Below, piece after piece: positions 3,001-6,000 of a stretch of DNA of 64,000 nt. The DNA is from Carcharhinus amblyrhynchos. Lineage: Eukaryota. A program made the position numbers. How positions within the stretch are numbered: position 1 is the stretch's first letter; each line of letters begins with the position of its first letter. The stretch is from NCBI GenBank assembly GCA_965287045.1, contig OZ336889.1, positions 44,392,001 through 44,456,000 of the forward strand, in the 5' to 3' direction.

Positions 3001-6000
3001 AATGAGACGATTGATAGGCTGGTTGTAATGTTCCAAAATTCCCCAGATTCTGGGAAGTGTTCGTTAGATTGGGAAAAGCGACGGTAGCACCTTAATGCAA
3101 TAGGAAAGAACGACCTATAGCAGGAAACAACATATGTTAGCTGAACAACACCAGTTAGCTGAACATATGACAGACAAGGAAAATGTTAGGAGCGGTTATT
3201 AAGATTTGATAGCAGGGCACATAAGTAAAACACAATAATCAGATAGGGCCAACACAGTCTTGTCAAAGGGAAGTCATGTTCAATCAATTTACTGGAGTGA
3301 TTTGAAGAAGTGAGGTGCTGTGGATAAAGGGGAGCGGGTGGATGTACTGTGTTTTCCAGTAAGGATTTGATAAGATGTCACAGCAAAGACTGTTGCGGAA
3401 AATGAGAGTTTATCGTGTGGGAGCATGGACAGAAAATTTGCGAGCGAATAGGAAGCATAGAGTAGGGAAAAGGGACAATTTTGTGATTCGCACGATGTCT
3501 GGAGTGATGTGCTACACTGATCAGTGCTGTGGCCTCAACTCTTTACAATATATATAAATAATGGTATGTTTTCAGTATGGTACCAGGTATGTTCTTGCTT
3601 TCTACTACGTTTTACATACGCTCTGATATTCGCCTCTTCTTCCCCCAAATTCCTTCACTCCTGGCCTCTAATTCTCATCCGTAAATACCTCCGTAAATGA
3701 AAACAAATCTTGCGCCACTACCGCTTTGGCCTTACTTCACTGTTGTTTTTGGAACGAGTTCAGGTGAACGGCCTTTTCTGTAACACGTTAACCAATCTGG
3801 TCAGGAAGTTCATCATCAATAACACTGCTAACAGCGTGTCACCAATATGGCTGGTCATGTATTGTGCATATGTTTCCTAATAGCACAAATGTTTTTGATT
3901 TGATTTGATTTGATTTCTCACTGTTTTATATAATAGTATACAGTGACAAGTATTCTTTCTTACACGTTTTACCGAGAAAGCATACCGTTCATAGAGAAGG
4001 AAAGGAGAGAGTGCTGAATGTAGTGTAACAGTCACATCTAGGGTGTGGAGAAACATCAACTTAATGCGAGTTAGGTCCATTCAAAAGTCCGAGGGCAGCA
4101 GGGAAGAAGGTGTTCTTAACTTGGTTGGTACGTGTCCTCAGACTTTATCTTTTTCGCGATGGAGTCACATATGTACTGAGTAAGGATGCCAGATTTCCTG
4201 CCGGGAATGATGTTAATGAAGCGAATGTTTTTTTTCAGCAATTCAGTAGTTTCATGGTTAACATGATAATAACTGATTTTGTTCAAGATTTATTGCCAGA
4301 TACCACGATGGGATTTAGTATCATTGCTTGTTCCAGGACTCTGCAACACTAATCCGGCAATTAGTCGCCAGTCTTTGGCGTCCGGTACGCTTTACAATGT
4401 TAGTTCCTGCTCCCTTGTTTGAGGCTACGCCTGCATCTGTCTTCGAAGCGTTTGAAATGCATCATAAACGTACGGATCGGATTTAAGCTTAATTTACTAG
4501 AGACTGAACACTGTTTCGCCGAACACAACAGTGCGAATAACCCTTCTACAGAAATTGTGTTTCTCTCTTCCCAAGTACTACCAGATCTCCCGAATTTATC
4601 TTCAATTTTATGTTATAATTGTCATTTTATTCTTCCTGCTTTCTATTGGACTTTGCACAATTGAAGAAAGAAGTCTAAAAGGAATCCCAACGAACCTTAT
4701 GCAGAAATTGTGTTTCTCTCTTCAAAAGTGCTATCAGATCTCCCGAATTTATCCTAACTTTTGTGTTATAATTGTCATTTCATTCTCCCTGCTTTCTATT
4801 GGACTATGCACAATAGATGAAAGAAGTCGAAACCGAATTCGAATGAACCTGTGCGCGTTTTGCGGCTGAACCGGCAGATGGCAATATTGCAGTTGATATC
4901 CCAAGGACCGTGTTATTACATGAAGTGTAGATGGGGCAAGAAATATCTCAAAATGTCAATTCCTGGCAAAATATGTGGACACTTGGAAAATAGGGATTCG
5001 GACATGAAAGTCGTTTGCAGAATATTCTCATTGGGTGTTGTCAATTAATTTGGATGTTTCATGAGTTCCCCTTTTTAATGGTGAATGTCCATAATATCAG
5101 AAAATCCGAATGATTAGAAGCAGTAAGAACCCAGTGCCACTAAATGTGTTACTATCACTTCCTTTCCTGCGTCATTCACTAAAGATAATGCTGCCAGCGC
5201 CACATTAATGGTCCGAACGTTCAGAAATTTGATAGGATAAAAATAGACAAAAAGGCGCGAACACGTTTCATACCATCACATGAACTGAAACGAAGATCAG
5301 GCCGAAGGTCGTGGCTGATGAGATCGTGGGGTCCACCCCACATTCGGTCCAGCCCTGTGCTCTTTGGGTCCCTTTTCAATCAGAAATCTATCGAATTCAG
5401 CATTTTTTAATGGGATATGGGCATCGCTGGCAAGACCAGCATTTATTCCTCACCGCTAATGGCCCTCAAGATGATGGTGGTGAATTGCTTTGTTGAATCA
5501 GCGCAGTCCCTGTGGTCCAAGTAAGCGATATATCCCCAGGTCAGATTGCGAATGACTTGGAGGAGAGAGCTAAGGTGGTGGTGCTCCCATGTGTCTGCTC
5601 CCCTTGTACTTCTCGACGGTAGAGGTGTGATTTTGTAAGATGTTGCCTTTGGATATTGGATGGGTTTTTGCAGTGCATCCTGCAGATGGTACCCACTGCT
5701 GCCACTGTTCATCGTGGCGGAGGCAGTTTGTGGAAGAGGTGCCAGTCAAGTTTTCTCCTGGATGGTGTGAGCTTCTTGAAAGTTATAGAAGTTGCACTCT
5801 CCTGGCTAGTGCAAATATTCCATCACACTCCTGACTTGTGCCTCGCAGATGGTGCACAGGCTTGGGAGTAAGGAAGTGAGACACTTGCCACAGGATTCAT
5901 GCCCTCTGACCTGCTCTTGTAGCCACCATATTTAAATGTCAAGACCAGTTCAGTTTCTGGTCAATGGTCGGCCTTAGGAAGTCGACAGTGACGGCATTAC

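What the first reader, a model, noticed from the sequence alone, without database searches (positions are those of the whole stretch)
4871..4883. One same-orientation CTCF-like motif in every intergenic spacer
Seen: CCGGCAGATGGCA (4871), CCAGCAGATGGCA (23179, 40046) and CCAGCAGGTGGCA (57519), each in DNA I cannot assign to a transposon, about midway between a C exon and the next promoter. Established: the CTCF core is CCASYAGRKGGCR (three copies match fully, one has one mismatch), and tandem same-direction CTCF sites underlie promoter choice in clustered protocadherins and scanning of mammalian V arrays. Inference: these may insulate each mini-locus or support loop-extrusion-based choice of one pre-joined gene. 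Recurrence alone proves little because the whole unit is duplicated, and the core is also an E-box.
Basis: partly seen in the sequence, partly recalled or inferred. Interest (0 to 1): 0.72.

Follow-up and report, generated by a model that had tools for sequence, protein, structure and literature searches.

The report
Duplicated CTCF-like motif in shark spacers
A good match to the CTCF binding motif sits in the spacer between tandem shark antibody light-chain genes, but its four copies are one ancestral site copied with the whole repeat unit, and nothing in the sequence shows it has been kept by selection.

Summary
CCAGCAGATGGCA-type 13-mers lie on the + strand at 4871, 23179, 40046 and 57519. 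Three match CCASYAGRKGGCR exactly and one has one mismatch.

The window holds about 3.6 tandem units of 16.9-18.3 kb. Each unit carries one germline-joined VJ exon and one C exon of an Ig lambda light chain. The C exon is 94-96% identical to sandbar shark lambda. The four motifs are therefore one ancestral occurrence, and their shared orientation follows from the duplication.

As a single event the match is fairly good. Only 3-4% of simulated units or column-permuted matrices reach that score.

Since the duplication it has changed at the spacer's own rate: 2 of 13 columns (15.4%) against 15.6% overall. One of the two changes hits a strongly preferred core base. Four copies give this test no power.

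Other features argue against a dedicated role:
- It is 5.6-6.5 kb from the nearest promoter.
- Three of four copies have no CpG in the core.
- No strong reverse-oriented partner lies in the window.
- An antisense LINE remnant lies nearby.

CTCF occupancy is possible but untested. An insulator or gene-choice role is unsupported. Interest is low to moderate.

The parts
4871..4883 (+). Motif copy in unit 1, CCGGCAGATGGCA. It has one mismatch to CCASYAGRKGGCR (A>G at core position 3), which creates the only CpG found in any copy of the core.
   Evidence: The 19-mer 4868-4886 scores 13.5 bits on the recalled matrix.
23179..23191 (+). Motif copy in unit 2, CCAGCAGATGGCA. Exact match; this is the inferred ancestral state.
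   Evidence: The 19-mer 23176-23194 scores 16.6 bits and is the best hit in the unit.
40046..40058 (+). Motif copy in unit 3, CCAGCAGATGGCA. Exact match.
   Evidence: Scores 16.6 bits.
57519..57531 (+). Motif copy in unit 4, CCAGCAGGTGGCA. Exact match; an A>G change at core position 8 turns the CAGATG E-box into CAGGTG.
   Evidence: Scores 17.8 bits.
4542..4850 (+). 153-bp tandem duplication (2.0 copies) present only in unit 1. It ends 21 bp before the motif.
   Evidence: The overlapping self-alignments show that units 2-4 have a single copy.
5973..6674 (-). Antisense LINE reverse-transcriptase remnant of unit 1. Its orthologues lie at 24281-24922, 41120-41866 and 58686-59265. The motif lies on the LINE's 3' side, about 450 bp beyond the projected end of ORF2.
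   Evidence: The ORF at 6057-6380 (-) has 37 relatives at E<=0.001. 6 of the 8 scanned carry RVT_1, and 2 of those also carry an endonuclease domain. tblastn extents come.
11397..11445 (+). Leader exon of lambda gene 1, with an octamer ATTTGCAT at 11268. The leader ATGs of genes 2 and 3 are at 28815 and 46043.
   Evidence: The leader peptide is identical to sandbar shark lambda in the alignment.
11586..11933 (+). Germline-joined VJ exon of gene 1 (...YYCGAWPSGVNRFIFGSGTKLNLG, with no RSS gap). By offset, genes 2 and 3 lie at about 29003-29353 and 46232-46579.
   Evidence: Pfam V-set E=3e-15 for the unit-2 copy.
16216..16538 (+). C-lambda exon of gene 1. By offset, the other copies lie at about 33687-34009 and 50540-50862. 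It contains a second + strand CTCF-like 13-mer at 16385.
   Evidence: Pfam C1-set E=1e-24 for the unit-2 copy. 94-96% identity to Carcharhinus plumbeus lambda. Motif.

Best explanation
The window is a tandem array of germline-joined Ig lambda (type II) VJ-C light-chain clusters from a carcharhiniform shark. The ancestral ~17 kb unit carried, in its non-coding spacer, one sequence that happens to match the vertebrate CTCF core well. Whole-unit tandem duplication then produced four copies, necessarily in one orientation and at one relative position.

Since then the copies have drifted like the surrounding spacer. One base changed in unit 1, weakening the match. One changed in unit 4, slightly improving it.

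My reading is that the motif is a selectively neutral passenger. CTCF may or may not sit on it opportunistically. It is not a dedicated insulator or gene-choice element.

Shown: the array structure, the orthology of the four sites, the motif quality and the neutral-level divergence. Inferred: the absence of a dedicated function.
For: - Unit structure and orthology come from self-BLAST and from 4-way alignments.
- Divergence: 2 of 13 motif columns vary (15.4%) against 1312 of 8395 ungapped columns (15.6%). 67% of the 7544 ungapped 13-column windows have 2 or fewer variable columns.
- The +-100 bp around the motif are 19.9% variable against 16.6% for the spacer.
- The method does detect slower-evolving DNA. 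In the 3-way alignment the C exon is 1.6% variable, the promoter 5.3% and the whole gene part 7.8%, against 11.9% for the spacer.
- The unit-1 change removes a strongly preferred base, costing 3.1 bits. That is about the mean effect of the 57 possible single changes, -3.2 bits.
- CpG observed/expected around the four sites lies at the 44th-88th percentile of 200-bp windows, so there is no hypomethylation footprint.
- No PWM hit of 6 bits or more lies within 1 kb upstream of any leader ATG, and the best reverse-strand hit is 10.5 bits.
- No octamer, EICE, NF-kB or EBF consensus lies within 300 bp of any copy.
Against: - As a single event the match is uncommon. Only 4.1% of simulated units and 2.7% of column-permuted matrices reach 16.6 bits. 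It is the top CTCF hit in all four units, and even the damaged copy keeps 13.5 bits. A skate study used a threshold of 8 with MA0139.1 (PMC10115646, methods passage).
- From general knowledge, which I recall and did not test here, a large share of matches this strong are occupied in mammals.
- The CTCF orientation code and loop extrusion operate in a cartilaginous fish (PMC10115646, passages).
- The conservation test has almost no power with four copies: P(0 variable of 13) is only 0.11 under neutrality.
Confidence: 0.58

Rival explanations
1. The site is a real, used CTCF site. One forward-oriented boundary element per unit blocks cohesin between neighbouring lambda clusters. This would either insulate each promoter from its neighbours' regulatory DNA or, together with reverse-oriented sites at an element outside the window, take part in choosing which pre-joined gene is expressed.
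For: - The core match is strong and is the best in every unit.
- Such a match is a 3-4% event per unit.
- The copies have a uniform forward orientation.
- Loop extrusion with a CTCF orientation code is documented in the little skate (PMC10115646, passages).
- Tandem forward sites paired with distal reverse sites drive promoter choice in protocadherin clusters (PMC7811963, passages).
Against: - Uniform orientation follows from the duplication itself.
- Divergence is at the neutral rate, and one copy is weakened at a key base.
- The site lies 5.6-6.5 kb from the promoters rather than at them.
- Three of four cores have no CpG, so methylation-gated choice of the protocadherin kind is not available.
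- No convergent partner above 10.5 bits lies within 64 kb.
- There is no CpG-retention footprint.
Confidence: 0.2
2. The motif was delivered by a transposable element. It would lie in the 3' untranslated tail of the antisense LINE whose reverse-transcriptase remnant occupies each spacer, or in another unrecognised repeat. The 'CTCF site' would then be one of many TE-borne copies in the genome. This is compatible with either a neutral or a bound state.
For: - A LINE RT remnant lies on the minus strand in all four spacers.
- Full-length relatives are about 970 aa long. That projects the ORF2 end to about 5330 in unit 1, some 450 bp from the motif and on the LINE's 3' side.
- TEs are known to spread CTCF sites in several mammalian lineages (PMC13399162, introduction passage).
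Against: - No second, non-orthologous copy of the 1.8 kb around the motif exists in the window.
- Rfam found no tRNA-like or other RNA family: 0 matches at gathering score over the window, and only 6 weak matches (E 0.9-9.9), none tRNA, in 22950-23350. ARAGORN found 0 tRNA genes.
- The 98-aa ORF across the motif has no relative in the protein collection.
- No microsatellite-type LINE tail is visible.
- No shark genomic DNA or repeat library was available, so this remains essentially untested.
Confidence: 0.15
3. The functional core is the E-box CAGATG/CAGGTG (or the overlapping YY1-like AGATGGC, a resemblance I recall) inside a B-cell enhancer 3' of the C exon. The CTCF resemblance would then be incidental.
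For: - The 13-mer contains CANNTG in all four copies, and unit 4 has the E2A-type CAGGTG.
- Ig light-chain enhancers 3' of C are known in mammals (general knowledge, recalled).
Against: - CAGATG occurs 66 times and CAGGTG 30 times in the window.
- Three of four copies carry CAGATG, which is not the E2A-preferred form (recalled).
- No octamer, EICE, NF-kB or EBF consensus lies within 300 bp.
- The neighbourhood is no more conserved than the spacer.
Confidence: 0.05

Closest known systems
Forward-oriented promoter CTCF sites (CSE/eCBS) of the clustered protocadherins
   Same: Both are tandem arrays of similar genes, each unit having a CTCF-consensus site in the same forward orientation (PMC7811963, passages).
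   Different: - Pcdh sites sit at a fixed short distance upstream of each start codon and carry a methylatable CGCT box.
- They pair with reverse-oriented sites at a downstream enhancer.
- Here the site is 5.6-6.5 kb from the promoter, three of four copies have no CpG in the core, and no reverse partner is seen in 64 kb.
   Same: Both are CTCF motifs inside an immunoglobulin locus, with many in one orientation.
   Different: Those sites act on V(D)J recombination (scanning, locus contraction, insulation of D-J or J-C centres). These shark genes are already VJ-joined in the germline, so there is no recombination to steer.
CTCF motifs at TAD boundaries of the little skate
   Same: The same vertebrate motif (MA0139.1) is used and orientation-biased in a cartilaginous fish (PMC10115646, passages). 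The motif grammar therefore plausibly applies to sharks.
   Different: The skate sites were called inside ATAC peaks at boundaries of about 800-kb domains. Here there are no accessibility or contact data, and the spacing is one site per 17 kb.
Transposon-borne CTCF motifs (for example SINE waves in rodents, dogs and opossum)
   Same: A motif multiplied by copying of the DNA that carries it, not by independent origin (PMC13399162, introduction passage).
   Different: Here the copying mechanism that is shown is segmental tandem duplication of a gene unit. A TE origin of the ancestral copy is only a possibility.

Membership tests
Vertebrate CTCF-binding site | Match to the 13-bp core consensus CCASYAGRKGGCR | tested here: met
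   3 of 4 copies match exactly and 1 of 4 has one mismatch.
Vertebrate CTCF-binding site | Position-weight-matrix score above thresholds used in the field | tested here: met
   The copies score 13.5, 16.6, 16.6 and 17.8 bits of a maximum 28.4. The skate study used a threshold of 8.
Vertebrate CTCF-binding site | Occupancy by CTCF and cohesin in cells | not testable with these tools
   No ChIP, CUT&RUN, ATAC or Hi-C data are available.
Vertebrate CTCF-binding site | Evolutionary constraint above the neutral background | tested here: inconclusive
   2 of 13 columns vary (15.4%) against 15.6% background. Four copies give no power: P(0 of 13) = 0.11.
Vertebrate CTCF-binding site | Local CpG retention, as expected of a germline hypomethylated bound site | tested here: not met
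   CpG observed/expected in the four 200-bp windows is 0.61-0.96, at the 44th-88th percentile of the window. This is an indirect and weak test.
Protocadherin-type stochastic promoter choice | CTCF site at a fixed short distance upstream of each start codon | tested here: not met
   The motif lies 5636-6526 bp upstream of the next ATG. No hit of 6 bits or more lies within 1 kb upstream of any of the 3 ATGs.
Protocadherin-type stochastic promoter choice | All unit sites in forward orientation | tested here: met
   4 of 4 are on the + strand. This is uninformative, because the units are direct duplicates.
Protocadherin-type stochastic promoter choice | Reverse-oriented sites at a distal enhancer | tested here: inconclusive
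   The best minus-strand hit in the 64 kb scores 10.5 bits (58439-58457). DNA beyond the window was not available.
Protocadherin-type stochastic promoter choice | Methylatable CpG inside the site that gates binding | tested here: not met
   3 of 4 cores contain no CpG. Only the mutated unit-1 copy (CCGG) has one.
V-array CTCF sites guiding RAG scanning | Unrearranged V and J segments with RSS that need to be brought together | tested here: not met
   All 3 complete genes have V fused to J in one exon. This matches the germline-joined light-chain genes reported for sandbar shark (PMC2193156, passage).
E2A-type E-box enhancer element | CAGGTG or CAGCTG core within a cluster of other lymphoid factor sites | tested here: not met
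   1 of 4 copies has CAGGTG and 3 of 4 have CAGATG. No octamer, EICE, NF-kB or EBF consensus lies within 300 bp. The consensus strings were recalled.
Transposon-borne CTCF motif | The motif lies inside a recognisable repeat that has other genomic copies | tested here: inconclusive
   No non-orthologous copy exists in the window. There was no RNA-family or tRNA signal and no protein-level relatives of the overlapping ORF. An antisense LINE remnant ends about 450 bp away by projection. No shark genome or repeat library could be searched.

The most novel reading that the evidence does not exclude
Every germline-joined light-chain cluster of sharks is fenced by its own forward-oriented CTCF site. 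An array of such fences, read by cohesin against reverse sites at a distant element, lets a B cell activate one pre-joined gene out of many. That would be a recombination-free counterpart of protocadherin promoter choice, and a possible route to light-chain exclusion in an animal whose lambda genes never rearrange.
Probability: 0.1. Interest if true: 0.75.

Novelty: new member of a known kind. Interest (0 to 1): 0.27.

Why it matters
How a shark B cell expresses one light chain, when an isotype consists of many pre-joined and separately promoted genes, is unresolved. A per-cluster architectural element would make that question testable.

The present evidence does not lift the motif above an ordinary consensus match carried along by segmental duplication. 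Its value is as a cheap and specific target for CTCF/cohesin profiling and for a many-unit conservation test, not as a discovery.

My two searches of the held paper library found no paper on CTCF or loop extrusion at cartilaginous-fish Ig clusters. I saw the top 15 of 49 listings in the first and the top 12 of 42 in the second.

Tried and rejected
- Pfam on 65 stop-to-stop ORFs (70 aa or longer) of one full unit found only the V-set and C1-set exons, plus one sub-threshold chance hit.
- Pfam at E<=1 on 13 suspected retroelement fragments found nothing usable. My first impression that these are LINE pieces needed another route.
- The word-indexed protein search with the 146-aa fragment 24904-25341(-) found nothing among 292 candidates.
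- The exhaustive HMMER search with 6057-6380(-) then gave 37 hits. Of the 8 I scanned, 6 carry RVT_1. P0125 has peptidoglycan-binding repeats and no RVT_1, and P0134 is a FERM fusion with RVT_1; I set both aside.
- I tested a tRNA-derived SINE idea for the DNA just left of the motif. ARAGORN found 0 genes. Rfam found 0 matches at gathering score and, in 22950-23350, only 6 weak matches (E 0.9-9.9), none of them tRNA. I dropped the idea.
- The inverted/direct repeat search of 22000-24200 gave only two short imperfect inverted pairs and no terminal repeats framing the motif.
- The ORF across the motif has no database relatives.
- The Hohman et al. sandbar shark genomic-clone paper (PMC47676) is not held, so I read nothing from it.
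No other shark DNA could be compared, so cross-species conservation and extra lambda units stayed unchecked.
- Supplements of the skate paper, which may list motif calls, were not opened.

Full report
**What is in the window**

Self-comparison shows about 3.6 direct tandem copies of a unit of 16.9-18.3 kb, with copies 88-96% identical. One run of N (63398-63540) lies inside a microsatellite of the last unit. I left it untouched and excluded it from the windows I analysed.

Each complete unit carries, on the + strand:
- an octamer ATTTGCAT about 125 bp before a leader ATG (11397, 28815, 46043);
- a V exon in which V and J are already fused (...YYCGAWPSGVNRFIFGSGTKLNLG followed by a GT donor);
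- a C exon 4.3 kb further on.

Pfam calls the unit-2 exons V-set (E=3e-15) and C1-set (E=1e-24).

The C exon, searched on its own, is 94-96% identical to three sandbar shark (Carcharhinus plumbeus) Ig lambda chains and 91% identical to the best Mustelus asterias entry. 134 of 311 candidates passed E<=0.001. I searched and translated exons one by one and made no joined model.

The window is therefore an array of germline-joined lambda (type II) clusters from a shark close to Carcharhinus; it is not human. This agrees with the statement that all identified light-chain genes of the sandbar shark are joined (PMC2193156, passage seen).

**The observation**

Three match CCASYAGRKGGCR fully and one has one mismatch. 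They lie 6.0-6.7 kb past a C exon and 5.6-6.5 kb before the next ATG. Alignment of the four neighbourhoods shows that they occupy the same columns.

The common orientation carries no information. The '0 of 100 shuffles' figure does not apply to the set of four.

**Is the single ancestral site more than chance?**

- The ancestral 19-mer scores 16.6 bits of a maximum 28.4. Unit 1 scores 13.5 and unit 4 scores 17.8.
- It is the best hit in every unit.
- 4.1% of 1000 first-order Markov simulated units contain a hit this good.
- 2.7% of 1000 column-permuted matrices find one in the real unit.

It is therefore a respectable match, nominally a 3-4% event. It was found by a reader who was free to recognise any of many known motifs.

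The next best hit (14.8 bits, + strand) lies inside each C exon and encodes the conserved IQQEAD. This shows how coding or other sequence can mimic the motif.

**Has it been preserved?**

In a 4-way alignment of about 10.6 kb around the sites, 1312 of 8395 ungapped columns vary (15.6%). The motif has 2 variable columns of 13 (15.4%). 67% of the 7544 ungapped 13-column windows do as well or better. The +-100 bp around it are 19.9% variable against 16.6% for the spacer.

The approach does see slow DNA. In the 3-way alignment:

| Region | Variable columns |
|---|---|
| C exon | 1.6% |
| Promoter | 5.3% |
| Whole promoter-to-C part | 7.8% |
| Upstream block, unit-1 9330-10420 | 5.1% |
| Spacer | 11.9% |

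The two changes in the motif are private to single units. The unit-1 change replaces a strongly preferred A and costs 3.1 bits, which is about the mean effect of a random change (-3.2). The unit-4 change gains 1.2 bits.

The motif therefore sits in the fastest-evolving part of the unit and behaves like it. The limit of this test is that even perfect conservation of 13 columns would occur by chance 11% of the time. Four copies can show 'no sign of constraint' but cannot show 'no constraint'.

**Context**
- CpG observed/expected around the sites is unremarkable, at the 44th-88th percentile.
- Three of the four cores have no CpG.
- No consensus for octamer, EICE, NF-kB or EBF lies within 300 bp. 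The E-box CAGATG occurs 66 times in the window.
- No promoter has a CTCF-like hit within 1 kb.
- No minus-strand hit exceeds 10.5 bits.

To the right of every site lies an antisense LINE remnant.
- The ORF at 6057-6380(-) has 37 relatives at E<=0.001 in an exhaustive search.
- 6 of the 8 relatives I scanned carry RVT_1, and two of the ~970-aa ones also carry an endonuclease domain.
- tblastn places the RT remnant at 6674-5973, 24922-24281, 41866-41120 and 59265-58686.
- Projecting the full-length proteins puts the end of ORF2 about 450 bp from the motif, on the LINE's 3' side.

Whether the LINE's untranslated tail reaches the motif cannot be decided here. No second copy of the flank exists in the window. 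No RNA-family or tRNA signal was found. The ORF over the motif has no protein relatives. No shark DNA collection was open to me.

**Mechanism**

Most likely (about 0.58) the motif is a neutral passenger of segmental duplication, possibly bound now and then but not maintained for a purpose.

The main rival (about 0.2) is a used forward-oriented boundary in each unit. It draws plausibility from three things:
- the strength of the match;
- the documented CTCF orientation code and loop extrusion in the little skate (PMC10115646, passages);
- the protocadherin precedent (PMC7811963, passages).

The protocadherin model's defining features are a promoter-proximal position, a methylatable core and reverse partners. 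The first two are not met and the third is not seen here. The V-array scanning model does not apply to genes that are already joined.

A TE-borne origin (about 0.15) and an E-box enhancer reading (about 0.05) remain. TEs are known carriers of CTCF sites (PMC13399162, introduction passage).

**Novelty and value**

My two full-text searches listed no paper on CTCF or loop extrusion at cartilaginous-fish Ig clusters. I saw the top 15 of 49 papers and the top 12 of 42. The idea is open, but the evidence for it here is a single consensus match. If real, it would be one more CTCF site in a tandem gene array, which is a known kind.

I score interest at 0.27. The boldest reading not excluded is a recombination-free, protocadherin-like choice among pre-joined light-chain genes. 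I give it about 0.1 probability and 0.75 interest if true.

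Noticed in passing
16385-16397, 33856-33868, 50709-50721 (+): There is a second recurring CTCF-like 13-mer, CCAGCAGGAGGCG (one mismatch; 14.8 bits on the recalled matrix), inside every C exon. It encodes the conserved IQQEAD, is identical in all 3 copies, and has the same orientation as the spacer motif.
   Followed up: partly
unit 1 9330-10420 (about 26990-28090, 44230-45330, 62000-63100 in the other units): This non-coding block 1-2 kb upstream of each promoter is markedly less diverged than the spacer: 8.0% against 16.6% variable columns in the 4-way alignment, and 5.1% against 11.9% in the 3-way alignment. 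It could be an upstream regulatory region or the edge of a gene-conversion tract.
   Followed up: partly
10460-10896, 28127-28312, 45364-45540, 63134-63674: A length-variable (CTAT/ATCT)n microsatellite lies 0.5-0.9 kb upstream of every promoter. The window's only N run (63398-63540) lies inside the last copy.
   Followed up: no
4542-4850: A 153-bp tandem duplication (86% matches between its two copies) is present only in unit 1 and ends 21 bp before the motif.
   Followed up: partly
11586-11933, about 29003-29353, about 46232-46579: The three germline-joined VJ exons differ mainly in CDR1 and CDR3, including a one-codon length difference in CDR3. 10% of V-exon columns vary against 1.6% in the C exon, so diversity is stored in the germline copies.
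   Followed up: partly
promoter-to-C part of each unit (unit 1 about 10900-17200): The gene part of the units is much more homogeneous (about 95% pairwise identity, 7.8% variable columns) than the spacer (about 90-94% pairwise). This includes the 4.3-kb J-C intron, where stretches such as 13680-14080 and 15030-15330 show 1-6% variable columns. The pattern suggests concerted evolution or constraint beyond the exons.
   Followed up: no
38666-38884 (+), 43182-43033 (-): tblastn with LINE ORF2-like proteins detects further short reverse-transcriptase-like fragments here, outside the main antisense LINE remnant.
   Followed up: no
19975-20665 and 54307-55005; 12186-12562 and 29607-29983: There are unit-specific insertions or deletions. 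One segment of about 0.7-1 kb is present in units 2 and 4 but absent from unit 1 (at 2308) and partly absent from unit 3. A ~375-bp intron segment carrying an ATGCAAAT octamer (12414, 29835) is absent from unit 3.
   Followed up: no
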